Below, piece by piece: positions 11,715-62,982 of a DNA stretch of 64,000 bases. The notes beneath the pieces are model-generated. The model was not told where the DNA came from. It was given only the letters and a program-made list of their open reading frames with translations, and ran no database searches. The DNA lies in assembly GCA_964490285.1 (NCBI GenBank), contig CAZBCN010000006.1, positions 13,720-77,719 of the forward strand, read 5' to 3'. Both the position numbers and the translations under genes were made by a program. Numbering within the stretch: position 1 is the first letter of the stretch; each line of letters starts with the position of its first letter. Source of the stretch: an uncultured Gemmatimonas sp. (GTDB taxonomy: Bacteria; Gemmatimonadota; Gemmatimonadetes; Longimicrobiales; Gaopeijiaceae).

Positions 11715-11741
11715 CTGGGATCTTCGTGTATAGGACTGCGA

Positions 11742-11772
11742 CCGGCCCGACGACCCGAGGTCGTCGGGCCGG
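11742..11772 (+). terminator. 13-bp perfect hairpin after the H1-like gene (no U-tract)
   Basis: CCGGCCCGACGAC - CCGAG - GTCGTCGGGCCGG, read directly. Confidence 0.35.
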
Positions 11773-11810
11773 CTCGCATCCACACGGCCGCATTCCTTAG
11801 ATTCGATTCG

Positions 11811-13103
11811 ATGCTTCGTTGGATCCCCCCAGTCGTCGTGGCCGCCCTCGTCTGGGCCGCGGCCACGCCATCGCCCGGCTTGGCGCAGGTCGCCACGCGA
11901 TCGGAGGCGATCGGAGCGGGGCCAGCCGTCACGGATGACGACGGCATCGGGCGATACGTCTTCGCCGGGGTCGCGATCGACAGCTTCGCGACAGGATCGC
12001 CTTGGAAGACGCTCGCCAACGCGGTCAACGACCTCGAGGGAGTCCGGGAGGTCCTCCAGGAGCGCTACGGCTTCGAGTCCCCGGACGAATGGGTGCTCAT
12101 CAACGCGGCTGCGACGAAGGACGCCATCGAAGAGCTGCTCGACATGCTGGACGATCCGGCGACGGGTCTGCGTCCCGACGACGCGCTCGTGTTCTTCTAC
12201 GCCGGGCACGGGACTGAACGGGTCGACAGCATCGTGACCGGTGACGTCCAGCGGAGGGGCTACCTGGTGCCCCACGACGTGACGAAGTCTCTCTCCGAGG
12301 CGCGTCGGCAGTACATGGAGATCAGCGAGCTGGTGGAGGCCCTGAGCGTGCTCGGCGCCAATCACGTACTCCTGATCCTCGACTCATGCCAGAGCGGTCT
12401 CGCGCTCACCGCCGACGACGGCCTCAAGGAGGAAGCGCGGGACTTCGAGATGTCTCAGCTCATCGAGGACATGGCTCGCAATCCCAGCCGGCTCGTGGTG
12501 ACCTCCGCGCAGTCCAACCAACTCGCTGCCGACGGGGGACCCTTCGAGGGCCACTCCCTCTTCACCGGCTACCTCGTCGACGGTTTGTTGCGCGCGGCAG
12601 AGGGCGGAATTCCCGACACGCTCCAGACCGAGCGGGGCCGCCTGGTGACGAGTGAGCTCTTCGAGTACGTGCAGGAGCGAGTCGGTCGGGCCCCGGGATC
12701 GACCCAGACGCCGACCTTCGGGGCGTTCCTCGCGCGCGGCGACGCGCCACGAGGGCAGATGGTCTTCGAGTTCGCAGTGGATCCATTCGACGACGCGTAC
12801 ACCGAGGCGATGGAGTATTACCGCGACCGGTCGTACGAAGCCTTCGTCGAAGCCGCCGAGCTCGCGCTCGCGGAGGAGGACGAGGAGAACGGGCCGCGCG
12901 CGGAATATCTGCGATTCCGCATCGCGACCATCCCGAACTCGAGGAACGTAGCCGCCCAGGTGACCGCGCTTCGGCGTCTCAAGCGCTACGCCGACGAAGG
13001 AGTGACGATCCCCCTGGATGCGCTCAATCTCGACGAACTCCTGCTGATGGCAGAAGAGCTCTGCGCCAACCCCAAGCACGCCTGCCCGGCGGCGGGCGCG
13101 TGA
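11811..13103 (+). CDS. exported caspase-family (peptidase C14) protein with a helical C-terminal region
   Basis: Signal peptide ...ATPSPGLAQ. His motif FFYAGHGTE and Cys motif LLILDSCQSGLA. Confidence 0.85.
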   Translation: MLRWIPPVVVAALVWAAATPSPGLAQVATRSEAIGAGPAVTDDDGIGRYVFAGVAIDSFATGSPWKTLANAVNDLEGVREVLQERYGFESPDEWVLINAAATKDAIEELLDMLDDPATGLRPDDALVFFYAGHGTERVDSIVTGDVQRRGYLVPHDVTKSLSEARRQYMEISELVEALSVLGANHVLLILDSCQSGLALTADDGLKEEARDFEMSQLIEDMARNPSRLVVTSAQSNQLAADGGPFEGHSLFTGYLVDGLLRAAEGGIPDTLQTERGRLVTSELFEYVQERVGRAPGSTQTPTFGAFLARGDAPRGQMVFEFAVDPFDDAYTEAMEYYRDRSYEAFVEAAELALAEEDEENGPRAEYLRFRIATIPNSRNVAAQVTALRRLKRYADEGVTIPLDALNLDELLLMAEELCANPKHACPAAGA

Positions 13104-15214: not shown

Positions 15215-17005
15215 TCAACGCTGACGGAAGAAGTCCGCCACCGTCATGTTCTGGCGATCACCGCGGATCTGAGGCTCCTGCAGCTCCCTGTTCTCGCGCG
15301 AGTAGGTCGTCACGTCGGCGAAGACCTGCCGGTGCACCTGCGCCAGGGTAGTGTTCGGAGATGCCTCGGTGAGATGCTGCCCGAGGAAGTACGCGAAGAC
15401 GCTCGAGCCCCCGCCGAGCTCGGGCCCTCCGACCCATGACACCTGCATATCGGTGGAGGCACCCCACATGACGTGGCGCTGCGGCGTCTCCATCACCCGC
15501 GCGATCGCGCCGAAATCACCGAAGCCGAGCGAGAAATCGGTCAGGTTCGCCGCCTTGAGATCACTCGTGATGAAGTTGGTCGGCATGCGAACGTGCTCCG
15601 CGATCCCCGGAGCGCTCAGGTCGACCATCTTCGCGGTCGCTCCGCGCGTGACGGATCCCGAGAAACATGCGTCGACCGCAACCATCGAACGGCCCGCGTC
15701 GAGCGTCTCGATCAGGTAGCCGAGCTCCTCATCAAGGATCACCGAAGACTCGCGGTCGGCGCCATACACATAGATGGCCTGATCGCCCTCCTCGTTCTCC
15801 GGATCGAGCGAGCCCGTCACGCCGATGTTCTCGCCGATCTGGGTCCCGTGACCCGAGTAGAAGAAGAACGCCAGCCCGTTCGGGCCCGCCTGGCCCAGGT
15901 GCTGCGCGATGCCCTGCGCGATGTTCTCGCGCGTGGCGTCGGAGTCGGTGAGGGTCACGACGTTTCCGGGCTCGAAGCCGAAGTGGCTCACGAGCATATC
16001 CTGCATGATGCTGACGTCCTCGAGGACGAACGGGCCGAGGTCGGCATCCGTTCCAGGATAGTCTGCGATGCCCACCAGGAGCGCGTAGCGCCCGTTCGGG
16101 TCGCCGCCCGTGCGGAACCCCGCAAACGGGACGCGCTGTGTCGAGGTAGCGCTCAGCGTGTACGCTCCCGTCGCGCCGTCCGCGTACGAGGTGACAAATA
16201 CCGTATACGCTCCACCGGACGGGAGCGTCACCTCGACGCGGCTGTTCGTGCCCTCACTGTCGTCGTTCTCTGCGAGTACGTCGGTGCCCGCGAGGACGCC
16301 CAGGTACGTGTCGAAGTCTTCCGACGCCAAGGTCACGGTGACCTGGTCGCCCGCTCGTCCCTGGAGCGTCCAGGTGTGGTAGTGAGTCCCGTCGGCCACC
16401 GGATCGCTGGCCACGAGCTCACCGCCGGTCGCCCTCCCCGGCACGAGCACGCGCGACTCTTCACCGCCCGTGGGCAGCACGTCGACGGAGATGCCGTAGC
16501 GCCCCGTGGCGCCGCTACCATAGCTCGTCGCCATGGCCGCGTACGTTCCGGGTCCAACCGCGAGCGACAGTCCGGAGTTCGTCCCAACGAGGTCATCGTT
16601 ATAGGCGAGGATCCCGCTCGCCTGACCGGGGGGGCCGTCAGCCAGCGCGACGTACGTGTCGAACGCGTCCGAGCTCATCGCGATCATGACCTCGCTCGGT
16701 TGCGTGACCTCGAAGGTCCAGACGTCCAGGAACGCGCCATTCTCCATCTTGGCGTCGGTGGTCTCGAGGGCCCCGGCCGTCATCTGGCCGGGAGCGATGG
16801 CGGCAATGCCCTTCTGCGCCTCGCCGTTGACGAGCGTCGTGGTCGCCTGCGCCATCCGCACGGCGCTGCTCTCGCCCCCCTTCGCGGAAAGGCCGGCGAG
16901 CGACTTGGAGCCCGGCACCTTCTCGGCTTCGCAAGCAGCCAGCGTCATACATGTCAGCAGCGCGCCGACGCTCGCTACGCGCCGGCCACGATCGGTTGTC
17001 AGCAT
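15215..17005 (-). CDS. lipoprotein: two PPC-like repeats fused to a C-terminal caspase (C14) domain
   Basis: Lipobox LTCMTLAAC. Repeats MSSDAFDTYVALADG...AYNDD and ASEDFDTYLGVLAG...ENDDSEG. Caspase motifs FFFYSGHGTQ and MVAVDACFSGS. Its SD (AGGAGA) overlaps the TAG stop of the upstream gene. Confidence 0.85.
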   Translation of the reverse strand: MLTTDRGRRVASVGALLTCMTLAACEAEKVPGSKSLAGLSAKGGESSAVRMAQATTTLVNGEAQKGIAAIAPGQMTAGALETTDAKMENGAFLDVWTFEVTQPSEVMIAMSSDAFDTYVALADGPPGQASGILAYNDDLVGTNSGLSLAVGPGTYAAMATSYGSGATGRYGISVDVLPTGGEESRVLVPGRATGGELVASDPVADGTHYHTWTLQGRAGDQVTVTLASEDFDTYLGVLAGTDVLAENDDSEGTNSRVEVTLPSGGAYTVFVTSYADGATGAYTLSATSTQRVPFAGFRTGGDPNGRYALLVGIADYPGTDADLGPFVLEDVSIMQDMLVSHFGFEPGNVVTLTDSDATRENIAQGIAQHLGQAGPNGLAFFFYSGHGTQIGENIGVTGSLDPENEEGDQAIYVYGADRESSVILDEELGYLIETLDAGRSMVAVDACFSGSVTRGATAKMVDLSAPGIAEHVRMPTNFITSDLKAANLTDFSLGFGDFGAIARVMETPQRHVMWGASTDMQVSWVGGPELGGGSSVFAYFLGQHLTEASPNTTLAQVHRQVFADVTTYSRENRELQEPQIRGDRQNMTVADFFRQR

Positions 17006-17016
17006 TCTTCGATCTC

Positions 17017-19032
17017 CTAGTTGGGTTGGATGTTGATGATCACTTCACGGCTCACAGCCAGGTCGGGCTCCGAGCCGCCGGTCGAACGGGTGCGCTCCGA
17101 CTCGAACCACGGGCGCAGATCCTGCGGAGCCTCCGTGGCGAAGACCTTCAAGACCTCTTCGCCGACGTCCCCTTCCGAGAGCCGAAAGCAGCGGTCGATC
17201 TCGCGGCCGGCGTCCAGCTGCTCCCCCGCCTGACCCTGGCGGGGCCAGAGGACCTCGACCTGCCCACCCGGACGGAGGTCGACCAAGTAGACGAACGCTC
17301 GCCGTCGGCCCCGATTCGCGACCCGGAGCCAGTAGGTGTCGCCCGGGCTCAGCCGCCACTGACCCCCGCCGAGGTTCTCGGCTCGAGACGCGGCGCCCGC
17401 CCAATCCGCGGGCGAGCAGTACGCCTGGCCACCCGGAGGCTGCACGAGCTGTGGCCGGGGGGATAGCTCGACGACGATGCCGAGCTCCGCGCTTTCGAAC
17501 GTGAGGCGCCGCAGGTATCGGTTGCGCGCGTACTCCTCCACTCGGCCGATGACCTGCTGAGCCCCGGTGGCGAGCACACGGTCGTCGGCGATCACTCGCG
17601 CCTCGGGACGTCCACCCCGATCACCGATGACGACGTCGCCGCCTTCGTCGACGAGCTGCACCATGCCGGACCCCGCGAGGCGGTTCGACAGGCCGGCCCG
17701 GTCGGTCTCCCGGAGCGAGCCGTCGAGGCGAACACGGAGCACGAGGTCCCCATAGCTGCGCTGGGTCACGAACGCCCAGGCTCCGCGCACGTCCTCGGTG
17801 ATGGACCCCGTCATCGCCTCGGCGAAGGAGCGCGTTGCCGACGCCTGCGTCACCAGGAGCGCGGCCAGCTCGGCGCGTTCGCCGGGCGTCGCCGTGCCCA
17901 CGGGATGCACCGCCAGGCGCGTTCCCGGGTTGAGGCCGACCAGCGTGCCACCGGCCAAGACGACCCCTTCGGAAGTGACGGAGTCCACCACCACATACGG
18001 CATCTGCTGCGTGAGGCGATTCGAGAACAGGGAGACGTCTGCATCCCCCTCCATCTGAGGTGTCTGGTTGCTGACCTTCCCGAGCAGGCTGCGCGCGATC
18101 GTGGCGAAGAGGGCGCGGTTCGTCGTCCCGGGGCCTGCTTCTGGAAGCGCGCGGGCGATGGCGAAGCTGAGCGACCCGACCTTCGTGCGGCCATCGAGGT
18201 CGTAGGTCTCCTTCGCCATCTGGCGTGGGCTCGCGGCACTGAAGACCACGAAGGGCGCGAGATCGACCGCTCCGCGGGTCGCGGCCGGCCGCCCAACCTC
18301 GATCCCCGTCCCGCGGTCTTCCTCGGACGCTCCGCGCGCGGCAGGCGCCGTTCCCCCCACGAAGGCGGGAGGGCCGAGCGGCGCCTCCTCTCCGCGTGCA
18401 GGCAGCTCGTCGTCCACGCCCCTCGTCCCCGTTCCGGAGTAGCAGGCGTCCAGGAACACCGTCACGTTCCCGGTCCGTCCCGCGCGCGCACGGATCTGGA
18501 CGATGTACTCCCCCAGCTCGTCGTCACGGATGTGGAGCGAGCCGTCGTAACCCTCGTAGAACTCCGCAGGCGCGCCGTACGGGACGAGCACCTCGTCCAG
18601 CCCGTCGAACTCCTCGTCCTCCGCGGGATTGTCGTTCGTGATCCGGTGCCCGTGCCCGGAGTAGTGGATCACGACCACGTCGCCTCGGTCCGTGTCGCGC
18701 ACGAGCCGCTGGAGCGCCGAGCGAATGCCGTCCGCCGTGGCCTGCGAGTCGGGGAGCACGCGGATGTCTCGCGGAAGGAATCCCTGCCGCTCCAGCGCGC
18801 CCCGCACGAGGACCACGTCGTTCGCCGAGCTGAGGTCACGATACGCGAGAACCGCGCGCCCAGTCGCCGGGTTCACCGGCGGCGGGCCGTACTCCCCGAT
18901 CGCGATGATCAGGGCCCGTTTCGTGCCCTCTTGAGCCGAGGCCGCCCCCCCACCGAGCAGCATGGTCGCGCAGGCGATGGCCGTCAGGCAGACCGCCGCC
19001 GGCCGCGGGCCGCACCGCAACGGGGTCGACAT
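17017..19032 (-). CDS. exported caspase (C14) protein with a DUF4384-like C-terminal domain
   Basis: Start chosen at MSTPLRCGPRPAAVCLTAIACATMLLGGGAASAQ (ATG 19032). Caspase motifs VVIHYSGHGH and VFLDACYSGTG. C-terminus ...SPGDTYWLRVANRGRRRAFVYLVDLRPGGQVEVLWP... resembles DUF4384. Confidence 0.85.
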   Translation of the reverse strand: MSTPLRCGPRPAAVCLTAIACATMLLGGGAASAQEGTKRALIIAIGEYGPPPVNPATGRAVLAYRDLSSANDVVLVRGALERQGFLPRDIRVLPDSQATADGIRSALQRLVRDTDRGDVVVIHYSGHGHRITNDNPAEDEEFDGLDEVLVPYGAPAEFYEGYDGSLHIRDDELGEYIVQIRARAGRTGNVTVFLDACYSGTGTRGVDDELPARGEEAPLGPPAFVGGTAPAARGASEEDRGTGIEVGRPAATRGAVDLAPFVVFSAASPRQMAKETYDLDGRTKVGSLSFAIARALPEAGPGTTNRALFATIARSLLGKVSNQTPQMEGDADVSLFSNRLTQQMPYVVVDSVTSEGVVLAGGTLVGLNPGTRLAVHPVGTATPGERAELAALLVTQASATRSFAEAMTGSITEDVRGAWAFVTQRSYGDLVLRVRLDGSLRETDRAGLSNRLAGSGMVQLVDEGGDVVIGDRGGRPEARVIADDRVLATGAQQVIGRVEEYARNRYLRRLTFESAELGIVVELSPRPQLVQPPGGQAYCSPADWAGAASRAENLGGGQWRLSPGDTYWLRVANRGRRRAFVYLVDLRPGGQVEVLWPRQGQAGEQLDAGREIDRCFRLSEGDVGEEVLKVFATEAPQDLRPWFESERTRSTGGSEPDLAVSREVIINIQPN

Positions 19033-19224
19033 TCGGGTTTTGGGGGGCTTCAGAAGGGGCGGGACGAAATGAGTAGGGTTGGTGCGTCGCGATCGCAAGG
19101 CCGGCACCCGACGACTTCGGGTCGCGGGAATCGGCCGTGTGACACCGCCCACCCTGGCACGTTCCGCAGGTTCCACCCAGATTCGTTCCATAGTGGTCGT
19201 CTGCCCCAATGGAGCATCACACCC

Positions 19225-19800
19225 ATGAAGAAAGCGATCTGCCTCGCCGTGCTGGCGGGGGCGTTCGCGATGGGCGCGCCGGTCGACGCACGCGCTCAGG
19301 GTCTGCTCGCGGTAGGCGAGATGGCACCCGATTTCGAGCTGCCGGGCGCGACCCGGTACGGTGCGCTCGCCAACCCCGTGCGCCTGAGCGACTACCGCGG
19401 CGAAACGGTCGTCCTCGCGTTCTTCTTCCGCGTCAGGACCCCTGGCTGAACAGTTCAAATGACGGCGTACCGTGATCAGTACGCGAGCCTATTCAACGAC
19501 GGACAGAACGTGGTGGTGCTGGGCATCTCGAATGATTCGCAGCAAGAGCTCGGAGCCTGGCTGAAGGACGCGGACTTCCCCTTCGTCTTCGCGAGCGACG
19601 CGGCCAATAACGGCGCGACGTACACGCGATTCGGCGGGGGGCTCCGACCCAACAACATGGTCGACAGCCGTGCCGTGATCGTGGTCGGTCCCGACGGTCG
19701 GGTCGCCGCGACGATCCCGCAGTTCAACCAAGCCGACCCGATGGCGTACGAGCAGCTTGCCGAGATCGTGGACCGAGTGACCCCGGAGCCGGCCCAGTAG
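19225..19800 (+). CDS. exported Bcp/AhpC-TSA-type peroxiredoxin with an in-frame TGA (19447-19449) at the peroxidatic Cys position: candidate selenoprotein, or else a pseudogene
   Basis: ORF ending at 19449 (...VVLAFFFRVRTPG*) and ORF 19459..19800 are in the same frame. Joined, they read RTPG-[TGA]-TVQMTAYRD, matching the Bcp motif TPGCTVQ-C--RD. Signal peptide MKKAICLAVLAGAFAMGAPVDARAQ. Confidence 0.6.
19465..19484 (+). promoter_or_regulatory. candidate bacterial SECIS hairpin
   Basis: GCGUAC-CGUGAUCA-GUACGC: 6-bp stem, 8-nt loop containing GU. It starts 15 nt after the UGA, so the loop lies about 21 nt downstream. Confidence 0.4.
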
Positions 19801-19829: not shown

Positions 19830-19872
19830 GAGGGCCCGGCGCGGACGTCCGCGCCGGGCCCTCGGTCTTTTT
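19830..19872. terminator. intrinsic terminator between convergent genes
   Basis: Near-perfect 15-bp palindrome GAGGGCCCGGCGCGG-ACGT-CCGCGCCGGGCCCTC followed by GGTCTTTTT. An A-run lies on the other side. Confidence 0.6.
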
Positions 19873-19887: not shown

Positions 19888-20412
19888 TCAGCTCCCGAGG
19901 AGCCGCGCCGCCGCGCCGACGAGATCCTGTTCGGCGCCTACGCCCGTGTAGGCCACCCTGCCCTGGGCGTCGAGCATGACGACGATGGACGTGGTCGTGG
20001 CGTTGTATGCGCGAACGGCGGCACCCCGGTCATCCCAGAGGAACGTGTACCCCGGGTCGTGATCCTCCAGGTGGCGCTGTACCCTGCGCACCGTCTGCGC
20101 GACGCCGACCGCGACCGCCACGATGTTGACCCGTTCACCGTGGCGCGCCTGGATCTGGTCCATCTGGGGCTGGAGCCTCTCGCAGATCTCGCACCAGGTC
20201 GCCCAGAACTCGATGATCGCGGGCTTGCCCCTCGTGAAGTCGATCAAGTCGACTGCGTTGCCCTCGAGGTCTTCGAGCGCCGCGCTGGGCCCCATCGTGC
20301 CGATCGGCAGGGAGACCGATCCCTCGCCCGCCGCCTGCGCCCGCACGCCGAGGGGGAGCGCCAGCACCAGGGTCAACGCGATGCGGAGCGACGATTTCCC
20401 GAGCATGGTCAC
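19888..20412 (-). CDS. TlpA/ResA-like periplasmic thiol:disulfide oxidoreductase
   Basis: Signal peptide. IIEFWATWCEICERL is a CxxC motif in a thioredoxin fold. Confidence 0.85.
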   Translation of the reverse strand: MTMLGKSSLRIALTLVLALPLGVRAQAAGEGSVSLPIGTMGPSAALEDLEGNAVDLIDFTRGKPAIIEFWATWCEICERLQPQMDQIQARHGERVNIVAVAVGVAQTVRRVQRHLEDHDPGYTFLWDDRGAAVRAYNATTTSIVVMLDAQGRVAYTGVGAEQDLVGAAARLLGS

Positions 20413-20413
20413 C

Positions 20414-21145
20414 TCACAGGTTGTATCCGGCGGACACGAAGTAATACTCCGCCATGCCGAACATGATCAACGCGGCGATCCGCTTCACCCACACCATCCA
20501 GACACCCGACCGGGGCAGAAGCGCTAGGGTCCCGGAGAACAGGCCCACGGCCACGAGGAGCGCCGTCATTCCCAGCGAGAAGACGAACAGATAGACGAAG
20601 CCCATCAGGCCGGCCCCGGTGGCCGCGACCCAGGTGAGCACGACCGCGAAGGCCGGCGCGCCGCACGGCGCGGCGACCACGCCCGACATCGCCCCCATGA
20701 GGAACACGGCCCCGTAGGAGCCGCCCTCTGTCTGCGCCGCCCGCTGGAGCAGCTTCTGGGGCACGGGCACCGGGAGCACGTCGAGCATCACCAGCCCGAA
20801 CAGGAGCAAGAGATTCCCGATCGCGAGCCGCGCCCACGGACTCGCGCTCACGGTCCCGAAGAGCTGGCCGCTCATTCCCGCGATCGCGCCGAGAACCGCG
20901 TACAGCATGGCGAGCCCCACCGCGTAGGTGAGCGTCAGGCCGATGGTCCGAGCCTTCGACTGTTGCTCCCTCGCAGTCCCCGCGATCACCGCGCTCGTGA
21001 TGGGGATCATCGGATACACGCACGGTGTGAGGCTCGTGAGGAGGCCCGCGCCGAACATTGCACCCAATGCGAGCAATGGGCTCGAGGCCAGCGCCTCGGA
21101 CAGGCCGCCCGGCGGCTCGATCTGCAGCAGGGAGTAGAGGGTCAC
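20414..21145 (-). CDS. ccdA: cytochrome c biogenesis / thiol-reductant transfer membrane protein CcdA (DsbD core)
   Basis: LTSLTPCVYPMIPI and the second Cys motif VVAAPCGAPAF. Polytopic membrane protein. Confidence 0.9.
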   Translation of the reverse strand: MTLYSLLQIEPPGGLSEALASSPLLALGAMFGAGLLTSLTPCVYPMIPITSAVIAGTAREQQSKARTIGLTLTYAVGLAMLYAVLGAIAGMSGQLFGTVSASPWARLAIGNLLLLFGLVMLDVLPVPVPQKLLQRAAQTEGGSYGAVFLMGAMSGVVAAPCGAPAFAVVLTWVAATGAGLMGFVYLFVFSLGMTALLVAVGLFSGTLALLPRSGVWMVWVKRIAALIMFGMAEYYFVSAGYNL

Positions 21146-22922: not shown

Positions 22923-23480
22923 TCACGACTTCCACTTGATATTGCACCCCACACTGGGTAACTGACTCGCCGAGGGGACTTCTCCCGCGAGGACCGCGTC
23001 GCAAGCGGCCCGCAGATCCGCCCCCGTGACCGGCACGTCGAGGGAGGGACGACTCGAGTCGAACTGCCCTCTGTAGACGAGCCGGCGGTCGGCGTCGTAG
23101 AGGAAGAAGTCGGGCGTGCATGCAGCCGCGTATGCCCTCGCTGCTTCCTGAGACTCGTCGAAGAGGTACGGGAAGGTATAACCACGCCGAGACACCTCCT
23201 CGGCCATCTTCGCCGGGCTGTCGTCCGGGTAGCGGACGACGTCGTTCGCGCAGATCCCCACCATGGCCAGGCCCTTCGCACGATACTCGCGCCCGAAGCG
23301 CGCGAGCTCCGGGGCGATGTGTTTCACGAACGGGCAGTGGTTGGACAGGAACACGACGAGTAGCGCTCGAGCGCCGGCGAAATCCGCGAGCGAGACCGTG
23401 CGCCCCGTCGCGGGCTCGGGCAACAGGAACTCCGGAGCGACGCTTCCGAGCGGCGCCATCGTCGACGGAACGCGAACCAT
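22923..23480 (-). CDS. thioredoxin-fold (AhpC/TSA-redoxin-like) protein
   Basis: LLVVFLSNHCPFVKH single-Cys motif typical of the thioredoxin family NHCP(F/Y)V group. Confidence 0.7.
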   Translation of the reverse strand: MVRVPSTMAPLGSVAPEFLLPEPATGRTVSLADFAGARALLVVFLSNHCPFVKHIAPELARFGREYRAKGLAMVGICANDVVRYPDDSPAKMAEEVSRRGYTFPYLFDESQEAARAYAAACTPDFFLYDADRRLVYRGQFDSSRPSLDVPVTGADLRAACDAVLAGEVPSASQLPSVGCNIKWKS

Positions 23481-45235: not shown

Positions 45236-46135
45236 CTATCGATCTCGAGCCGGCGGCCCGAACAAGGCCTTGGCCCCATCCCCGGTGATCTGCGGGCTCT
45301 GACCCAGCTCCTCGTACTCGAGCCGCTCGGCGACGCGGCGCAGTACGTCCTCGTAGGTCGCGGACGGCGTAACCTCGCCGAGCGCCTCCGCCAGGTAGCG
45401 CGTGAACATCCCTCCGTGCTCGCCGCCGGGAGAGGCGGTGGCATCGAGCGGGCCCTCGAGCGCGGCCTGATTGGGCGCCGCCGCCGCGAGCTCGAGAATG
45501 CTCGTCGCCGCGTCGGCCATGGACTCGGGATCGTACCGCTGGCGAACCACCGCAGGCTCCCTACCGCCCTCGGAGGGGACCGCACGCTCGAGCGAGCGCG
45601 TCCGCATGTTCGCGGCCCGTGTGGCGGTGCCCGAGTGGCAGCTGTCCAAGATGACCACGACGTCCGTACGGATCGTCGACAGCCAGGCGCGAAACTCGTC
45701 GTCGCGGATGTCGTTCGCGCTCGACAGCGGCAGGACATCGACCGGAGCGAGCGTCTCGTCGAGGCCGTCCGGCTCGTCGCCGTCGAGGTCGTAGACCTGG
45801 GACCCGTGCCCCGCGAAGTAGAAGATCGCGAGGTCACCAGGGGCTGCGCGGCCGGCGAGCCAGACCGTGATCGCCTCACGGATCGCCTCCTTCGTCGCCT
45901 CGCGCCCCAACAGGGCCATCGAGTTCGCCGGGTCCAGTCCCCAACGCTCGACGAGCACGTCCCTCATGACGCGCGCGTCCCGCTCGGCGCCGAGCAGGTC
46001 GCCTCCCGGCTCGTCGTCGAACTCGATGTAGTCGTTGATGCCCACGAAGACGGCATACTTCGTCTGTGCGAGCGCCGGGGGCGCGACCGACGACGCAGCG
46101 AGCACGAGGAGGAGCGGCAGGGCGCGCGGGGACAT
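45236..46135 (-). CDS. exported caspase-family (C14) protein, single domain
   Basis: Signal peptide MSPRALPLLLVLAASSVAPPALAQ. Motifs IFYFAGHGSQ and VVILDSCHSGT. Confidence 0.85.
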   Translation of the reverse strand: MSPRALPLLLVLAASSVAPPALAQTKYAVFVGINDYIEFDDEPGGDLLGAERDARVMRDVLVERWGLDPANSMALLGREATKEAIREAITVWLAGRAAPGDLAIFYFAGHGSQVYDLDGDEPDGLDETLAPVDVLPLSSANDIRDDEFRAWLSTIRTDVVVILDSCHSGTATRAANMRTRSLERAVPSEGGREPAVVRQRYDPESMADAATSILELAAAAPNQAALEGPLDATASPGGEHGGMFTRYLAEALGEVTPSATYEDVLRRVAERLEYEELGQSPQITGDGAKALFGPPARDR

Positions 46136-46186
46136 GGAGCGTGCTACCCGCGATAGGCCTGATTGGCTCGATGCCACGTGTGTGGG

Positions 46187-58420: not shown

Positions 58421-58995
58421 GCTCCCTTCGATGCCGAGGTCGTGATCTGCGAAGGGATGGAGATCGTCCGACTCCTGTCTGGACGAAGTCGGCCTGTCGA
58501 AGCGGGCCAGGTATCGGGCACTCCAACGGGCCATCGTCCTGTCGGCCGGATTCGCCCCGCAACGGGTGAATTCAGGGGCGGCCTCGGCGCCATCTTGCGG
58601 ACTCCGGTGGGCTAGCTAAGACTGTCCGCCGCCCCCCCATGGCGAACATCCCTGTAATCCTCACCTTGCGCGACGCACCCGTGCATCCGCTCGCTGCGGC
58701 TAAGTCGCGCGCAGTGGTAGCCGCATTGTTCGCTGGTGTGGCCCTCCCGCCATCGTCTGCGGCGCCGAGTGACGGACGCTTCTCGTTCGTCGACCCCTCG
58801 TGTTGGACGGTCGGCCTGAACCGGAGCACGGGGCAACGATCACGTCATCCGAGCCGACGTTTTTCAAGCCATCCAGCTCACTGTTTTTCCACCCGGGCGC
58901 GTCTCGCCGGGTCTCGTACGTGGGTCGACGTTGCCGTCAAGGCATCGGCGGCAACGGCACCGCCATTAGATAGCTCAAGTCAATAGGAGAACATC

Positions 58996-61900
58996 GTGAA
59001 GTGCACGCGTCGTTGGGCGAATGCCCTGGTCGCAATGCTGATGGTCGGCACGTTCATCAGTTGCCGAGAAGTCGAGCCGCTGGCCCCGCTGGCGGATAGA
59101 CCGAACTTCGCCATTTCAGACGCTGTGCACGGAGATGGAGTCGCGGGCTTCTACTTCCGTTCTCCCATGGTCCCCGACGTGCCGCTCCCCGGCACGTTCG
59201 ATCCTGGATTGAATCCGGAGGTCACGGTCTGTGAATGGGATGGGACGACCTGCGCCGCGCTCATCGCGCATTTCACGACCACGTCGGGCCCGGGGGCGGA
59301 GAGCGTCAGGGCCAACGGCGACCACTACCAGGTCAATTGGCACGCGAGGGACTACGATCTCGACCCTGCCAAGACCTACCGGATCGTCGTGGCCGTCGGT
59401 GGAACGGAGTTGGGCTTTGCCGATGTGGATGTCGTCGCCAACGGCCGAGAGCTAAAGAACGTGAACACCGGCGAGTTCATTCCGCTCGTCGAGGATCGCA
59501 CCCTGCCCATCAAGTTCTACATCCAAGCCGGAACGGTTGCGGCGTTCGGACCGTCGGGCGGGCACTTCGTTTTGGCGGACGGCGACGTCGAGATCACGGT
59601 TCCCGAGGGTCTCCTGCAGCAGCCACTGGGCATCACCGTGCGTCGCGCTCCGCTCGATGCGGGTGAGTACGCGGATGCCGCGCTGATGCCGGGCACGACG
59701 TACGACTTCGGGCCCGACGGTACCGTGTTCGACGCCCCAGGCATCCGCGTCACGATTCACTACGATCCGGCGAATCTCGGTGACATGACTCCCGACCAGC
59801 TGACGCTGGTGACGCAGATCGACGGACTCTGGGCTGACCTCGGCAACGTCGCCGTGGATGAGAGCGCCCGCACTGTAAGCGCAGATCTGGCGCACTTCAC
59901 GTTGGTGAACATCGCGGCGATCATCAAGCCGGTCATCACTGGTCCAGACCCGCTGAACATGGTCACAGGGCAGGTCCTCGACCTGATTGGCGAGGTCGGC
60001 TACCGTCGCGCGGCGTACTGGAGGTCCAGCGCATCCACGATCGTTTCCGTCGACACGCCGATCGGGCCGCTGAGCGGGAGGATCACGGCCAGGACGCCAG
60101 GCACGGCGAACATCTATCTCACCACCGAGGACCCGGTGGTCGCGACGGTCGTGAGGGCGGACACACTCAGGGTGAACGTCAGCGCACCGGGCATCGGTTC
60201 TCTCCACAACGTGACGGGCGGGTTCAACTTCACATGCGGCCAGGACGGAAGTGGTGTCGCGTATTGCTGGGGCCAGAACTCATTCGGTCAACTGGGTGAT
60301 CGCACCACCACGAATCGCTCGACACCTGTGCCGGTAGCTGGTAACCTGCAGTATACCACGGTTGTCGCCGGGGGCGCGCACGCGTGTGGACTCACCGTGG
60401 ATGGCAGGGCCTGGTGCTGGGGACGCAACAACTTCGGTCAGCTGGGTGACAACACGCTCATCGATCGCGCGGCGCCCGCGCCGGTCATGGGGGACTGGCG
60501 CTTCGCGCTGATCACGGCGGGTGACCGACACACGTGCGGCTTCACGCTGGTGCAGCCGACCCAACCAGCCGCTCTGCTCTGCTGGGGATCCAACGAGTGG
60601 GGCCAGTCCGGCGGTGCGCTCGGCGGAGCGGCAGCAAAGCAGCCGTTTGCCCTTCAGGTGAACCCGGCCGGCGGCGTCAGCAGTCTGGACGCGGGCCTGG
60701 GTCATACCTGCGCCGTGATTGGCGGTGCCGCCACGTGCTGGGGGCTCAACAGCAACGGTCAGCTCGGCGATGGGTCGACCACGAACTCGACCTTCGCTTA
60801 CAACCGAGTCCAGCCGCCAAGGCCGTTCCGTTCGATCAGCGCCGGACCCGCGCACACGTGCGCGATCACGACGTCCGATGAAGCCTACTGCTGGGGCCGC
60901 AACACTGCTGGCCAGCTCGGTGACAACACTACGACGGATCGAGGCCTCGCGAACCTGCCGGTCAGCGGCGTGGAACTGTGGTCTCAGATCGACGCCGGTG
61001 GATCCACCGGCACGACCTGCGCCCTCACGACTTCCGCGAGCCTGAACCCCGACAAGCTGTACTGCTGGGGCCGTAACGCGGCGGGCAATGTCGGCGACGG
61101 CACGAACATCGACCGCGCGGTGCCCGTCGAGGTGAGCAGCGGCGAAACTTTCCGCCAAGTCGGCGCCACCGGTGGGGGGCACGTATGCGCGACGGAGGTG
61201 GGCGGCGGTGGCTGGTGCTGGGGCCTCAACGCCTTCGGGCAGTTGGGGGACAACTCGCTCACCAGCCGAAATGCGCCAGTACAGGTCGGCGCGTTCACGG
61301 TGGTACCGGGCCTCCTCCCGGGGTCGCTGTCCGGGTCCGTCAAGCGGCTGTTCTTGAACACGCCGCTGCACACGGTGCGGGTATCACCCACCTATGGGTT
61401 CCCGTCGCTGACGGACGCGCAGGGGGCCTATGCGCTCGGCCCAATGATTCCGGGCCCGACGACGCTGAAGCTCGAGTTCCTGCCGGCCGGGTGCGTCGAT
61501 CCCGGCATCAACTGGACGATTCAGAGTGGTCAAAATCCCGGGCTGCTCATCCAGGTTCCGTGCTACGAGATCGCGTCGGTGGCGATCGCTCCTGCGGCGG
61601 CTACACTGCAGGTAGGGACGATCCTGACGCCAGTCGTCACCGTTCGGGACAATCAGGGCACGGTCGTGCCCGTGCAGGCGACGTTCTCCACCACGGGGCC
61701 GATCTCCGTGACACCGACCGGCCAGGTGACCGCGCAGTTCGTGGGTAGCGGCGTGTTGACGGCGACTGCCTCGCCCGCGTTCGGCCAATCGCGGATCACG
61801 GTGCAGGGCGGTTGTGCCGCGGCTCCCGTGGCCGGCTGCGTGCTGACGGGTCACGTGCCCGCGCTCGCGCCGTACCTCCGTTCCGTCGGCGCTCCCGCCG

Positions 61901-62982
61901 CGACCACGATCGAGTTCACGAACGCAGGCATCTTTGGCATCAAGGTGTTCTGGCTGGACTACAATGGAACGCCGCAGCCGTACCTCGACCTGGCCCCGGG
62001 TCAGACCCAGGGCATCGGCACATTCACGACGCATCCCTGGCTCGTGACCAATGATTTTGGGACGCCTCTCGGCGTCTACGTGAATCCTGCGACGACGCTC
62101 GCGAGGGTGATCCAAGGAGGTGTCTTACCGTCGTACACGAACGTGCGGGACAACGGCTTCCCCCTCAGCTCGGTCTGGGGCTCATCCGCGAGCGACGTGT
62201 GGGCCGTTGGATTTGGCGCCCATCCGCTACGCTACCAGGGTGGAACCTGGGGCGTGGTGAACACACCCACGACGCCGCCGCACGGGCCCCTCAACGACGT
62301 TTGGGGCACCGGCGCCAACGATGTCTATGCAGTTGGTTGGAGCGGCCGGATCATTCACTTCGATGGAGCCAACTGGAGTGCCCCCGCGCCCGGTATCCCC
62401 GACGTATTCCTGAACGGTGTGTGGGGTGCCGGCGGCCGGGTGTATGCGGTCGGCAGCGCGGGCACGATCATGGCGTACGATGGCGTGAGCTGGGCGCCGG
62501 AAGTCAGCAACACGGCGGTCCAGTTGCAAGACGTGTGGGCGGCCGACGCCAACAACGTGTGGGCAGTCGGAGACGGCGGGGTCATCGTTCGTCGTGTGGG
62601 CGGCGTTTGGGTGGAGCAGGTGGTAGGTCCGCCCACGCGAAGCTTCCGTGGCGTATGGGGCACGTCGATCAGCAACGTGTACGCGGTCGGTCAGGGCGGG
62701 ATGATCTACCGCTTCGACGGGAGCAACTGGATCGCGGAGACAAGCAACACGACCCAGACGCTGCAGGCGGTCGGCGGCACGTCGACGGGCGCCGTCGTTG
62801 CGATCGGCGCTCAGGGCACGTACCTACGCCGCACGGGCGTGGGCGGCTGGGTCCCGCAGCCGGTCCCGTCAGCGGATGTATTGGAGGGGATCTGGTTCGC
62901 CTCATCGACCGACGCGGTCGTCGTCAGCAGCATCTCGACGACAGTGCCGCAGACCGGGGCGATCCTGCGCGGACTTCCCTGA
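58996..62982 (+). CDS. 1328-aa multidomain lipoprotein: N-terminal domain, Ig-like, 7x RCC1 propeller, CarboxypepD_reg-like, Ig-like, VHL-beta-like, and a second 7-blade propeller
   Basis: AGGAGA SD and GTG start. Lipobox MVGTFISC. Seven CWG-N--GQLGD repeats. Segment LRSV...FTN...WLDYNGTPQPY...HPWL. Seven L-dVWG---n-VyAVG--G-i--fDG--W blades. Confidence 0.85.
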   Translation: MKCTRRWANALVAMLMVGTFISCREVEPLAPLADRPNFAISDAVHGDGVAGFYFRSPMVPDVPLPGTFDPGLNPEVTVCEWDGTTCAALIAHFTTTSGPGAESVRANGDHYQVNWHARDYDLDPAKTYRIVVAVGGTELGFADVDVVANGRELKNVNTGEFIPLVEDRTLPIKFYIQAGTVAAFGPSGGHFVLADGDVEITVPEGLLQQPLGITVRRAPLDAGEYADAALMPGTTYDFGPDGTVFDAPGIRVTIHYDPANLGDMTPDQLTLVTQIDGLWADLGNVAVDESARTVSADLAHFTLVNIAAIIKPVITGPDPLNMVTGQVLDLIGEVGYRRAAYWRSSASTIVSVDTPIGPLSGRITARTPGTANIYLTTEDPVVATVVRADTLRVNVSAPGIGSLHNVTGGFNFTCGQDGSGVAYCWGQNSFGQLGDRTTTNRSTPVPVAGNLQYTTVVAGGAHACGLTVDGRAWCWGRNNFGQLGDNTLIDRAAPAPVMGDWRFALITAGDRHTCGFTLVQPTQPAALLCWGSNEWGQSGGALGGAAAKQPFALQVNPAGGVSSLDAGLGHTCAVIGGAATCWGLNSNGQLGDGSTTNSTFAYNRVQPPRPFRSISAGPAHTCAITTSDEAYCWGRNTAGQLGDNTTTDRGLANLPVSGVELWSQIDAGGSTGTTCALTTSASLNPDKLYCWGRNAAGNVGDGTNIDRAVPVEVSSGETFRQVGATGGGHVCATEVGGGGWCWGLNAFGQLGDNSLTSRNAPVQVGAFTVVPGLLPGSLSGSVKRLFLNTPLHTVRVSPTYGFPSLTDAQGAYALGPMIPGPTTLKLEFLPAGCVDPGINWTIQSGQNPGLLIQVPCYEIASVAIAPAAATLQVGTILTPVVTVRDNQGTVVPVQATFSTTGPISVTPTGQVTAQFVGSGVLTATASPAFGQSRITVQGGCAAAPVAGCVLTGHVPALAPYLRSVGAPAATTIEFTNAGIFGIKVFWLDYNGTPQPYLDLAPGQTQGIGTFTTHPWLVTNDFGTPLGVYVNPATTLARVIQGGVLPSYTNVRDNGFPLSSVWGSSASDVWAVGFGAHPLRYQGGTWGVVNTPTTPPHGPLNDVWGTGANDVYAVGWSGRIIHFDGANWSAPAPGIPDVFLNGVWGAGGRVYAVGSAGTIMAYDGVSWAPEVSNTAVQLQDVWAADANNVWAVGDGGVIVRRVGGVWVEQVVGPPTRSFRGVWGTSISNVYAVGQGGMIYRFDGSNWIAETSNTTQTLQAVGGTSTGAVVAIGAQGTYLRRTGVGGWVPQPVPSADVLEGIWFASSTDAVVVSSISTTVPQTGAILRGLP
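60200..61290 (+). repeat. seven RCC1-type repeats (beta-propeller)
   Basis: YCWGQNSFGQLGD, WCWGRNNFGQLGD, LCWGSNEWGQSGG, TCWGLNSNGQLGD, YCWGRNTAGQLGD, YCWGRNAAGNVGD, WCWGLNAFGQLGD. Confidence 0.8.
62165..62979 (+). repeat. seven repeats of about 40 aa forming a second predicted propeller
   Basis: VWGSSASDVWAVG, VWGTGANDVYAVG, VWGAGGRVYAVG, VWAADANNVWAVG, VWGTSISNVYAVG, VGGTSTGAVVAIG, IWFASSTDAVVVS. Confidence 0.65.

What the first reader, a model, noticed from the sequence alone, without database searches (positions are those of the whole stretch)
19225..19800. In-frame TGA exactly at the peroxidatic Cys of an exported Bcp-type peroxiredoxin, followed by a SECIS-like hairpin
The six-frame track splits this gene at TGA 19447-19449. 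The two halves are in the same frame and together form one complete thioredoxin-fold peroxiredoxin. The stop aligns with the Cys of the T-P-G-C-T-V-Q motif: this window has RTPG-TGA-TVQMTAYRD, and E. coli Bcp as I recall it has MTPGCTVQACGLRD. Fifteen nt downstream is a 6-bp hairpin GCGUAC/GUACGC with an 8-nt loop CGUGAUCA containing GU. That places the loop about 21 nt from the UGA, within the geometry described for bacterial SECIS elements. Peroxiredoxin-like selenoproteins are known from bacterial and metagenomic surveys. An exported one, with a signal peptide, paired with TlpA/CcdA would be notable. The alternative is a TGC/TGT-to-TGA pseudogene.
Basis: partly seen in the sequence, partly recalled or inferred. 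Interest (0 to 1): 0.7.

Follow-up and report, generated by a model that had tools for sequence, protein, structure and literature searches.

The report
Exported selenocysteine peroxiredoxin gene, mis-annotated as two
The "stop" codon inside this gene is almost certainly read as selenocysteine, giving an exported selenium peroxiredoxin that is conserved across Gemmatimonadota and that public annotations split into two fragments; it is a new member of a known selenoprotein family.

Summary
ORF 19225-19800 (+) has one in-frame TGA at 19447-19449. A 6-bp/8-nt-loop hairpin lies at 19465-19484.

The selenoprotein reading is strongly supported. All 84 gene copies in 80 Gemmatimonadota species genomes carry TGA at this codon. 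Both halves are under purifying selection in one frame (dN/dS 0.09 and 0.16, dS about 1). The TGA aligns with the peroxidatic Cys of E. coli Bcp and of archaeal BCP structures.

The hairpin meets every criterion of the published bacterial SECIS model. Its synonymous sites are frozen: dS 0.11 against about 1.05 elsewhere, and no run like it in 100,000 shuffles.

TGA is the normal stop in this window, so pseudogene, split-gene and code-reassignment readings fail.

The protein has a signal peptide, no Cys in the mature part, and Thr and Arg of the Prx active site. The canonical Pro is replaced by Phe/Tyr. A convergent ccdA-tlpA pair is conserved in 56-60 of 76 loci, which resembles the Caulobacter ScsB-TlpA-PprX envelope peroxide pathway.

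The main gap is the Sec machinery: selA/B/C/D could not be checked because only about 1.4 Mb of flanks was reachable.

Prx "TxxU" selenoproteins are already known, so this is a new member of a known kind.

The parts
19211..19214 (+). GGAG, a likely ribosome-binding site 10 nt upstream of the ATG
   Evidence: Read directly from the sequence. This is inference only.
19225..19800 (+). Complete selenoprotein gene of 191 codons plus stop: an exported BCP/PrxQ-like peroxiredoxin with Sec at codon 75
   Evidence: Translation. Pfam AhpC-TSA 4.5e-23. PDB BCP chains 2ywn and 2cx3 at E about 1e-11 to 1e-12 over the whole domain. Conserved in 80 species genomes.
19225..19296 (+). Signal peptide MKKAICLAVLAGAFAMGAPVDARA, with predicted cleavage after A-R-A
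   Evidence: A basic n-region, a hydrophobic core and an A-x-A-Q motif are present in nearly all of the 84 copies examined; the three paralogue copies instead have lipobox-type signals (L-A-x-C-G). No dedicated signal-peptide predictor was run.
19438..19440 (+). Thr72 of the TxxU active-site motif
   Evidence: It aligns with the conserved Thr of BCP structures and of E. coli Bcp. Thr in 94% of copies (Gly or Ser in the rest) (column 43).
19447..19449 (+). In-frame TGA, the predicted selenocysteine codon (U75), at the peroxidatic position
   Evidence: TGA in 84 of 84 orthologous or paralogous copies. It aligns with the peroxidatic Cys of 2ywn, 2cx3 and E. coli Bcp.
19465..19484 (+). SECIS-like hairpin: stem 19465-19470 / 19479-19484 (6 bp) and loop 19471-19478 (CGUGAUCA)
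   Evidence: Invariant stem in 71 distinct sequences. Codons GCG TAC CGT GAT CAG TAC are fixed in 83-84 of 84 copies; dS is 0.107 against about 1.05 elsewhere; a run of 6 frozen codons was reached in 0 of 100,000 shuffles. It meets the published bSECIS criteria (PMC13188914).
19669..19671 (+). Arg149, the conserved Prx active-site arginine (VDSRAV)
   Evidence: It aligns with the Arg of BCP structures. Invariant in all copies (column 123).
19830..19863 (.). A 15-bp GC-rich hairpin with T-runs on both strands: a bidirectional terminator between the convergent prx and tlpA-ccdA genes
   Evidence: Terminator scan.
19888..20412 (-). Exported TlpA/ResA-like thioredoxin with WCEIC (CxxC), the proposed direct reductant
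   Evidence: Pfam Redoxin, AhpC-TSA and Thioredoxin. NCBIfam ResA and TlpA hits, all below cut-off. Found convergent and downstream of the prx gene in 60 of 76 loci that have enough flank.
20414..21145 (-). CcdA (DsbD-family transmembrane electron transporter), immediately upstream of tlpA on the minus strand
   Evidence: Pfam DsbD_TM 5.6e-44. Found next to the prx gene in 56 of 76 loci.

Best explanation
This is one gene, not two. Its mRNA carries a UGA at codon 75 that is most likely decoded as selenocysteine. A 20-nt hairpin starting 15 nt downstream would act as a bacterial SECIS that recruits SelB carrying Sec-tRNA(Sec) to the ribosome. The product is exported through the Sec translocon and its signal peptide is cut after A-R-A. 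It is a BCP/PrxQ-like thioredoxin-fold protein. Its only redox-active residue is Sec75, set in a TxxU motif with the conserved Thr72 and Arg149. The most likely job is reduction of peroxides in the cell envelope. Sec75 attacks the peroxide and becomes a selenenic acid. With no resolving Cys present, it is then reduced by the CxxC of the neighbouring exported TlpA-like thioredoxin. That thioredoxin is in turn recharged across the membrane by CcdA from cytoplasmic thioredoxin. What is shown: the gene is intact, and it is conserved and translated through the TGA in one frame. The hairpin is under nucleotide-level selection. The active-site alignment and the conserved neighbourhood are also shown. 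What is inferred: that the inserted residue is Sec, that the protein is exported, that it has peroxidase activity, and that the electron path is CcdA to TlpA to Prx.
For: TGA is present at this codon in all 84 copies from 80 species-level Gemmatimonadota genomes. dN/dS is 0.094 upstream and 0.155 downstream of the TGA, with dS about 1. The T-V-Q codons between the TGA and the next ATG are conserved as protein and match the Bcp motif CTVQ. The U position aligns with the peroxidatic Cys of BCP structures 2ywn and 2cx3 and of E. coli Bcp; Thr and Arg are conserved. For the hairpin, the stem is invariant in 71 distinct sequences. Six consecutive codons have essentially zero synonymous variation, including the otherwise disfavoured CGT and GAT; this was reached in 0 of 100,000 shuffles, and dS is 0.107. 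The only two natural changes lie in the loop and do not alter the hairpin's energy. Every possible synonymous stem change, even compensated ones, costs 1.4-2.6 kcal/mol in a stem that is already minimal. All four bSECIS model criteria are met: loop 8 nt, stem 6 bp, G at loop position 2 followed by U, spacing 21 nt, and -8.5 kcal/mol in context (criteria from PMC13188914). TGA is the ordinary stop for 19 of 30 long ORFs in the window. Prx with a TxxU motif is an established selenoprotein family (PMC2398784 Table 2; PMC13188914). A signal peptide is conserved and there is no Cys in the mature protein. ccdA-tlpA is adjacent in 56-60 of 76 loci. An experimentally shown analogue exists in ScsB-TlpA-PprX (PMC3322552).
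Against: selA, selB, selC and selD were not found. They could only be sought in the 64-kb window and about 1.35 Mb of flanks, so the Sec-decoding trait of these genomes is unverified. No open-access paper in the library mentions Sec use in Gemmatimonadota. The hairpin shows no covariation because it is invariant. It has no Rfam match even at E <= 10. As a bare 20-mer it reaches only -7.0 kcal/mol. In this single sequence it is not unusual. The loop is 8 nt, which is longer than the commonest bSECIS loop pattern. The 'absolutely conserved' Pro of PxxxTxxC is Phe or Tyr in this clade. The protein scores below the NCBIfam cut-offs for Bcp (56 against 140 bits), PrxQ and PrxU, so peroxidase activity is less certain than Sec insertion. 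The prx and tlpA-ccdA genes are convergent, not co-transcribed.
Confidence: 0.85

Rival explanations
1. The gene is a pseudogene, or the TGA is a sequencing or assembly error in which TGC or TGT became TGA.
For: One metagenome contig (L083, encoding P0001) carries TGC at this codon.
Against: TGA is present in 84 of 84 copies from 80 independently assembled species genomes. Strong purifying selection acts on both sides of it (dN/dS 0.09 and 0.16, dS about 1). The TGC contig is identical to the TGA-bearing genome L013 over 573 nt except for 2 bases that lie 8 nt apart. It is therefore the exception: a strain variant or a local assembly error.
Confidence: 0.01
2. Two separate genes encode a split peroxiredoxin: a 74-aa N-terminal piece ending at TGA and a 113-aa C-terminal piece starting at ATG 19459. 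This is how gene callers annotate it.
For: Public gene calls give exactly these two pieces, in more than 1,600 and more than 970 protein clusters respectively. An ATG lies 9 nt after the TGA.
Against: The split would delete the catalytic residue. The three codons between the TGA and the ATG are conserved as Thr-Val/Ile-Gln, matching the Prx CTVQ motif, so they are translated. In 4 copies the Met is replaced by Leu (CTG), which leaves no start codon there. The frame is always continuous, with no indels.
Confidence: 0.02
3. The UGA is read through, but not as Sec. It could be near-cognate suppression or Cys, Trp or Gly insertion, or these genomes could use a different recoding mechanism, with the hairpin acting as a generic read-through stimulator.
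For: The Sec machinery could not be demonstrated in these genomes. No literature was found on Sec use in Gemmatimonadota.
Against: The UGA sits exactly at a catalytic Cys position of a family with known Sec forms. The hairpin matches bSECIS geometry. Genome-wide reassignment is excluded, because TGA ends 19 of 30 long ORFs in the window. A residue other than Sec or Cys would kill the active site. If Cys were the intended residue, TGC or TGT would be one mutation away and would not need a frozen hairpin.
Confidence: 0.06
4. The gene is a genuine selenoprotein, but not a peroxidase. It could be an envelope thiol/selenol oxidoreductase with another substrate, for example reduction of sulfenylated or disulfide-bonded envelope proteins, or metal or metalloid handling. 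The adjacent CcdA-TlpA pair might serve cytochrome c maturation rather than this protein.
For: The canonical Pro of PxxxTxxC is missing. Scores fall below all NCBIfam Prx equivalog cut-offs, and there is a weak ResA-like hit. In Caulobacter a Prx-like ScsB substrate (PrxL) had no peroxidase activity (PMC3322552). CcdA-TlpA/ResA pairs are classically cytochrome c maturation factors (established knowledge).
Against: The best Pfam, PDB and NCBIfam matches are all peroxiredoxins of the BCP/PrxQ type. Thr, Sec and Arg sit at the catalytic positions. No ResB/ResC-type cytochrome c synthase genes lie beside ccdA-tlpA here; the next genes are DUF502 and M50B-like. The neighbourhood with prx is conserved in 56-60 of 76 loci.
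Confidence: 0.2

Closest known systems
Peroxiredoxin (Prx) selenoprotein family with a TxxU motif. Sources: Zhang & Gladyshev surveys, PMC2398784 Table 2, with 253 members in the GOS data; review PMC13188914. The biochemical prototype, from my own knowledge and not checked here, is PrxU of Eubacterium acidaminophilum.
   Same: The domain is PF00578 (AhpC/TSA). Sec replaces the peroxidatic Cys in a T-x-x-U motif. A SECIS hairpin lies just downstream of the UGA.
   Different: It is not an equivalog of PrxU: NF040737 scores 41.7 bits against a cut-off of 270. It is BCP/PrxQ-like rather than AhpC/Prx1-like. The Pro of PxxxTxxU is replaced by Phe or Tyr. It has a signal peptide and no other Cys. 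It is found across Gemmatimonadota, a phylum not named in the selenoproteome papers I could search.
Caulobacter crescentus envelope peroxide-reduction pathway ScsB -> TlpA -> PprX (Cho et al. 2012, PMC3322552)
   Same: An exported BCP/PrxQ-type peroxiredoxin with an N-terminal signal sequence. A periplasmic TlpA-like thioredoxin acts as direct reductant. A DsbD-family membrane protein supplies the electrons. Here the three genes are neighbours.
   Different: PprX uses Cys, has the full Pro/Thr/Cys/Arg set and has a resolving Cys. The membrane component there is ScsB (or DsbD), whereas here it is the minimal CcdA. Electron transfer has been shown experimentally there and is only inferred here.
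E. coli Bcp and the archaeal BCP structures 2ywn/4g2e (Sulfolobus) and 2cx3 (Aeropyrum)
   Same: The fold and active-site register are the same. U75 aligns with the peroxidatic Cys, Thr72 with Thr and Arg149 with Arg. Identity to Bcp is 28% at E 8e-16.
   Different: Those proteins are cytoplasmic and Cys-based. E. coli Bcp has a resolving Cys five residues after the peroxidatic Cys, where this protein has Thr. The NCBIfam Bcp equivalog cut-off is not reached (56 against 140 bits).
Bacterial SECIS elements, as described by the consensus bSECIS model and exemplified by E. coli fdhF
   Same: A stem-loop inside the coding region just 3' of the UGA. The loop has G at position 2 followed by U. Spacing from the UGA to the loop is 21 nt. 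The stem has 6 bp and the energy is about -8.5 kcal/mol.
   Different: There is no Rfam match. The loop of 8 nt is longer than the commonest pattern. No bulged U or lower stem is conserved. The element is sequence-invariant across the clade rather than covarying.

Membership tests
Bacterial selenoprotein gene (Sec-UGA plus bSECIS) | In-frame UGA at a position where homologues carry a catalytic Cys | tested here: met
   U75 aligns with the peroxidatic Cys of 2ywn, 2cx3 and E. coli Bcp.
Bacterial selenoprotein gene (Sec-UGA plus bSECIS) | UGA conserved in orthologues, with coding constraint on both sides in the same frame | tested here: met
   TGA in 84 of 84 copies. dN/dS is 0.094 and 0.155, with dS about 1.
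Bacterial selenoprotein gene (Sec-UGA plus bSECIS) | bSECIS model: apical loop 3-9 nt, upper stem 4-16 bp, G in the first two loop positions, 16-37 nt from UGA to loop, MFE <= -7.5 kcal/mol (PMC13188914) | tested here: met
   Loop 8 nt (CGUGAUCA), stem 6 bp, spacing 21 nt, -8.5/-8.6 kcal/mol in context. The bare 20-mer gives -7.0. bSECISearch itself was not run.
Bacterial selenoprotein gene (Sec-UGA plus bSECIS) | The hairpin is under selection as RNA (covariation or synonymous constraint) | tested here: met
   No covariation is possible because the stem is invariant. Synonymous sites are frozen: dS 0.107 against about 1.05, and the run was reached in 0 of 100,000 shuffles.
Bacterial selenoprotein gene (Sec-UGA plus bSECIS) | selA, selB, selD and tRNA-Sec present in the same genome | not testable with these tools
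   None were found in the window or in 80 flanking loci, about 1.4 Mb in all. The rest of the genomes could not be fetched, so this absence says nothing either way.
Bacterial selenoprotein gene (Sec-UGA plus bSECIS) | Selenium is actually incorporated at the UGA | not testable with these tools
   This needs 75Se labelling or mass spectrometry.
Prx (TxxU) selenoprotein family | PF00578 domain with Sec in a T-x-x-U motif | tested here: met
   AhpC-TSA 4.5e-23. The motif is T-P-G-U, or T-R-G-U in relatives. The family definition comes from PMC2398784 Table 2.
Peroxiredoxin, BCP/PrxQ subfamily | Absolutely conserved Pro, Thr, Cys and Arg (PxxxTxxC ... R) | tested here: not met
   Thr72, U75 (in place of Cys) and Arg149 are present. 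The Pro at position -7 is Phe here and Phe or Tyr in all 84 copies.
Peroxiredoxin, BCP/PrxQ subfamily | Score above the curated equivalog cut-off (NCBIfam Bcp NF006960, PrxQ NF053650) | tested here: not met
   56 bits against a cut-off of 140, and 41.5 against 260. The best PDB matches are nevertheless BCPs, at E 6e-12 and 1e-11.
Peroxiredoxin, BCP/PrxQ subfamily | Resolving Cys (atypical 2-Cys mechanism) | tested here: not met
   The mature protein has no Cys in any copy. The resolving Cys of Bcp aligns with Thr. The protein would therefore work as a 1-Sec enzyme that needs an external reductant.
Peroxiredoxin, BCP/PrxQ subfamily | Thiol-dependent peroxidase activity | not testable with these tools
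   This needs an enzyme assay.
PrxU (NF040737 equivalog) | Score above the curated cut-off | tested here: not met
   41.7 bits against a cut-off of 270.
Envelope peroxide-reduction pathway (DsbD-family -> TlpA -> exported Prx, the PprX type) | The Prx carries an export signal | tested here: met
   A conserved n-region, h-region and AxA signal are present in the orthologues, and the paralogues have a lipobox. This rests on sequence features only; no predictor and no localisation data were used.
Envelope peroxide-reduction pathway (DsbD-family -> TlpA -> exported Prx, the PprX type) | An exported TlpA-like CxxC thioredoxin and a DsbD-family membrane transporter are available and linked | tested here: met
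   TlpA-like protein (WCEIC) and CcdA (PF02683, 5.6e-44). They are adjacent in 60 and 56 of 76 loci.
Envelope peroxide-reduction pathway (DsbD-family -> TlpA -> exported Prx, the PprX type) | Electron transfer from the membrane protein to TlpA to Prx | not testable with these tools
   This was shown for Caulobacter only (PMC3322552).

The most novel reading that the evidence does not exclude
Gemmatimonadota as a phylum may decode UGA as Sec. I found no paper stating this. Their hallmark selenoprotein may be a cell-envelope selenoperoxidase recycled by CcdA-TlpA. That would be the first Sec-dependent peroxide-reduction pathway in a bacterial periplasm. It would use an unusually small, sequence-invariant SECIS and a Pro-less FxxxTxxU active site.
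Probability: 0.4. Interest if true: 0.55.

Novelty: new member of a known kind. Interest (0 to 1): 0.4.

Why it matters
Three reasons.

1. Annotation. Thousands of database entries called "peroxiredoxin" or "redoxin domain-containing protein", of 74 and about 113 aa, are halves of one selenoprotein. More than 1,600 N-terminal and more than 970 C-terminal protein clusters are affected. No NCBIfam model captures the family, so automated pipelines will keep splitting it.

2. Biology. The gene implies that a widespread, mostly aerobic soil, freshwater, marine and sponge-associated phylum depends on selenium. It places a selenol-based peroxidase in the cell envelope, coupled to a CcdA-TlpA electron supply. 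That would extend the only known envelope peroxiredoxin pathway (PprX) to a Sec enzyme.

3. Method. The invariant 20-nt hairpin shows how a minimal SECIS can be recognised from frozen synonymous sites when covariation is absent.

None of this overturns current knowledge. Sec peroxiredoxins and DsbD-fed periplasmic peroxiredoxins are both known.

Tried and rejected
1. Rfam gave nothing, either at gathering thresholds over the whole window or at E <= 10 on 19400-19560. Bacterial SECIS families in Rfam are lineage-specific, so this is uninformative.

2. RNAalifold and covariation: only the 6-bp stem is predicted, with zero covarying pairs because it is invariant. I switched to a synonymous-site test. 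A possible lower stem pairing UGAACAG with CUNUUCA was considered and dropped, because its central partner (column 57) varies freely.

3. Sec machinery: ARAGORN on the window and 80 loci found no tRNA-Sec. tblastn with E. coli SelA, SelB and SelD, fetched from NC_000913.3, found nothing. Pfam annotation of 28 window ORFs found none.

4. Literature on Sec in Gemmatimonadota or Gemmatimonas: nothing relevant.

5. A scan for other TGA-interrupted genes in the window and loci, using GC3 periodicity, found no convincing second selenoprotein family.

6. The "Cys orthologue" P0001 turned out to be a 2-nt variant of a TGA-bearing genome. It is therefore weak evidence for a distinct Cys lineage.

7. 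An alignment for AlphaFold (A4) mis-aligned the N-terminal fragments. Structure prediction was dropped as unnecessary, given full-length PDB sequence matches.

8. Two Pfam calls failed because of wrong coordinates, and one script crashed. All three were rerun.
Full report
**Observation**

An ORF starts at ATG 19225, with a GGAG 10 nt upstream. It runs in one frame to TAG 19798-19800. The only interruption is TGA 19447-19449 (codon 75), in the context AFFFRVRTPG-TGA-TVQMTAYRD. With the stop replaced by Cys, the 191-aa product matches Pfam AhpC-TSA across residues 30-162 (E 4.5e-23) and Redoxin.

The inverted repeat GCGTAC/GTACGC with the 8-nt loop CGTGATCA lies at 19465-19484. It starts 15 nt after the TGA, and the loop starts 21 nt after it. 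Taken alone, the hairpin is unremarkable: a 71-nt fold has z = 0.49 against shuffles. The window has no tRNA gene and no Rfam match.

**Is the TGA real and functional?**

A protein search returned 119 of the top 120 hits as 111-116-aa proteins. Each covered only the part after the TGA. A second search with the N-terminal part returned only 59-87-aa proteins that end where the TGA is. Gene callers therefore split this gene in the same place in more than 1,600 and more than 970 protein clusters.

A scan of GTDB species genomes found 262 genomes that encode a relative. The best 80 loci were fetched. All are Gemmatimonadota: Gemmatimonadales, Longimicrobiales and Candidatus Palauibacter, plus a few bins deposited under other names. 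The aligned codon is TGA in every one of the 84 gene copies; three loci hold two paralogues.

The flanks have diverged to synonymous saturation (dS about 1.0). Yet dN/dS is 0.094 for the 46 codons before the TGA and 0.155 for the 117 codons after it. Both halves are therefore translated in the same frame and kept by selection. This excludes a pseudogene and a base-call error.

It also argues against two separate polypeptides:
- The T-V/I-Q codons between the TGA and the next ATG are conserved as protein.
- That ATG is CTG in four copies.
- A split would remove the catalytic residue.

Genome-wide reassignment of TGA is excluded as well, because 19 of 30 long GC3-rich ORFs in the window end in TGA.

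The one apparent Cys orthologue is P0001. It is encoded on a 2-kb contig that is identical to the TGA-bearing genome L013 over 573 nt, except for CCT to ACT and TGA to TGC, 8 nt apart. It is a strain variant or a local assembly error.

**The hairpin**

In 71 distinct sequences the alignment from the TGA onward is ungapped. RNAalifold predicts only the 6-bp stem, and every pair is invariant, so there is no covariation to count.

The informative signal is at synonymous sites. The six codons that form the hairpin are GCG TAC CGT GAT CAG TAC. They are fixed in 83-84 of 84 copies. Other invariant Ala, Arg, Asp and Tyr positions of the same gene use two to six codons, and CGT and GAT are minority codons elsewhere. 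Of 97 conserved degenerate columns, only 7 have normalised codon entropy below 0.1, and six of those are consecutive here. A run that long was reached in 0 of 100,000 shuffles. dS across the hairpin codons is 0.107, against about 1.05 in the rest of the gene.

Two stem pairs (33-48 and 36-45 in alignment A2) join two third-codon positions. They could change freely without altering the protein, yet neither wobble nor compensated variants occur. Energy evaluation explains this. The stem is minimal: -7.0 kcal/mol as a bare 20-mer and -8.5/-8.6 in context. Every synonymous stem variant, including the compensated A-U forms, loses 1.4-2.6 kcal/mol. The only two natural variants are CGG in L057 and GAC in L039. 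Both are in the loop and are energetically neutral.

The element satisfies each criterion of the published bacterial SECIS model (PMC13188914, Fig. 2 legend):

| Criterion | Model | Observed |
|---|---|---|
| Apical loop | 3-9 nt | 8 nt |
| Upper stem | 4-16 bp | 6 bp |
| G in first two loop positions | required | C-G-U... |
| Spacing, UGA to loop | 16-37 nt | 21 nt |
| MFE | <= -7.5 kcal/mol | -8.5 kcal/mol |

**What the protein is**

The best solved relatives are BCP-type peroxiredoxins: 2ywn/4g2e at E 5.7e-12 and 2cx3 at E 1e-11. Both match over the whole domain. The substituted Cys aligns with their peroxidatic Cys, and VDSRAV aligns with their conserved Arg.

Identity is 28% at E 8e-16. 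U75 aligns with the peroxidatic Cys. The resolving Cys of Bcp aligns with Thr.

The protein is nevertheless divergent. It falls below the NCBIfam cut-offs for Bcp (56 against 140 bits), PrxQ and PrxU. The "absolutely conserved" Pro of PxxxTxxC is Phe or Tyr in all copies.

All orthologues have a basic n-region, a hydrophobic core and an A-x-A-Q signal peptide. The second paralogues in L034, L051 and L059 instead have lipobox-type signals. The mature protein contains no Cys at all, so Sec is the only redox residue.

**Neighbourhood**

A 15-bp GC-rich bidirectional terminator lies at 19830-19863. Beyond it, on the opposite strand, sit ccdA (20414-21145; DsbD_TM 5.6e-44) and, 1 nt after it, a TlpA/ResA-like exported thioredoxin with WCEIC (19888-20412). 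This convergent pair is found within 3 kb in 60 (tlpA) and 56 (ccdA) of the 76 loci with enough flank. The upstream caspase-domain genes are not conserved. No cytochrome c synthase genes accompany the pair here.

**Mechanism proposed**

SelB carrying Sec-tRNA(Sec) binds the hairpin and inserts Sec at UGA 75. The pre-protein is exported and its signal peptide is cleaved. Sec75, activated by Thr72 and Arg149, reduces peroxides in the envelope. The resulting selenenic acid is resolved by the CxxC of the TlpA-like protein. CcdA keeps that protein reduced using cytoplasmic thioredoxin.

- Shown: the gene's integrity, conservation and frame; RNA-level selection on the hairpin; the active-site register; the conserved linkage.
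- Inferred: Sec as the inserted residue, export, peroxidase activity and the electron path.

**Comparison with what is known**

Prx with a TxxU motif (PF00578) is an established selenoprotein family, with 253 members already in the GOS survey (PMC2398784 Table 2; PMC13188914). An exported BCP/PrxQ peroxiredoxin, reduced by TlpA and fed by a DsbD-family protein, was demonstrated in Caulobacter as ScsB-TlpA-PprX (PMC3322552).

The present gene combines the two. It differs in four ways:
- the Pro-less motif;
- the lack of any resolving Cys;
- CcdA as the membrane partner;
- its distribution across Gemmatimonadota.

That phylum does not appear in the selenoproteome papers I could search. One recent database explicitly excludes unnamed species.

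**The gap**

selA, selB, selD and tRNA-Sec were not found in the window or in about 1.35 Mb of relatives' flanks. This is only about 20 kb per genome and says nothing about the rest. Sec insertion therefore rests on strong but indirect evidence. The residual alternative is non-Sec read-through, which I put at about 6%.

**Verdict**

It is a new, systematically mis-annotated member of a known selenoprotein family rather than a new kind of system. Interest is moderate (0.4). The most novel reading still open is a phylum-wide Sec trait with a periplasmic selenoperoxidase pathway. I give it about 0.4 probability and an interest of about 0.55 if confirmed.

Noticed in passing
window 11715-13103 (+), 15215-17005 (-), 17017-18990 (-), 45236-46186 (-): There are four separate caspase-domain (Peptidase_C14) genes in one 64-kb window. 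One has a PPC pre-peptidase domain and one has a weak EACC1-associated caspase hit. The two next to the prx gene are not conserved neighbours in related genomes.
   Followed up: partly
window 58987-62982 (+): A 1331-aa RCC1-repeat protein gives a Pfam hit to the VHL beta domain (PF01847, E 3e-9) at residues 965-1027. That is an unusual domain for a bacterium.
   Followed up: no
L034:14226, L051:14308, L059:10920 (the TGA of each second copy): Three Longimicrobiales/Gemmatimonadota genomes carry a second paralogue 0.7-4 kb from the first. It has the same TGA and the identical hairpin, but a lipoprotein-type signal peptide (L-A-x-C-G) and the motif RARGxGU.
   Followed up: partly
window 19464 and 19485 (alignment A2, columns 30 and 51): The bases immediately flanking the 6-bp stem co-vary as G...G or A...A (rarely A...C). 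This is not Watson-Crick pairing. Both are third codon positions. The pattern may be phylogenetic, or it may reflect a non-canonical contact. It remains unexplained.
   Followed up: no
L083:1246-1818 compared with L013:6321-6893: A metagenome contig is identical to genome UBA2982 over the whole gene, except for CCT to ACT and TGA to TGC, 8 nt apart. This gives a full-length Cys form (P0001). It is either a natural Sec-to-Cys strain variant or an assembly artefact.
   Followed up: partly
L012, L045, L046, L047 (record titles): These loci have the same gene, the same TGA and the same synteny as the Gemmatimonadota loci. They are deposited as 'Methanobacteriota archaeon' and 'Gammaproteobacteria bacterium' MAGs, and P0014 is named 'Thermoplasmatota archaeon'. 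The likely cause is mis-binning or mis-naming.
   Followed up: no
window 22923-23480 (-): This is a second, Cys-based Redoxin/AhpC-TSA protein of 185 aa (motif NHCPFV), 3 kb from the selenoprotein gene. It appears somewhere in 26 of the related loci but is rarely adjacent (1 within 3 kb).
   Followed up: partly
window 20414-21145 (-): The best NCBIfam hit for the CcdA is the DsbD-like part of the selenoprotein TsoB (NF045694, 164 bits against a cut-off of 805). This is domain-level similarity only and is not evidence of a Tso operon.
   Followed up: no
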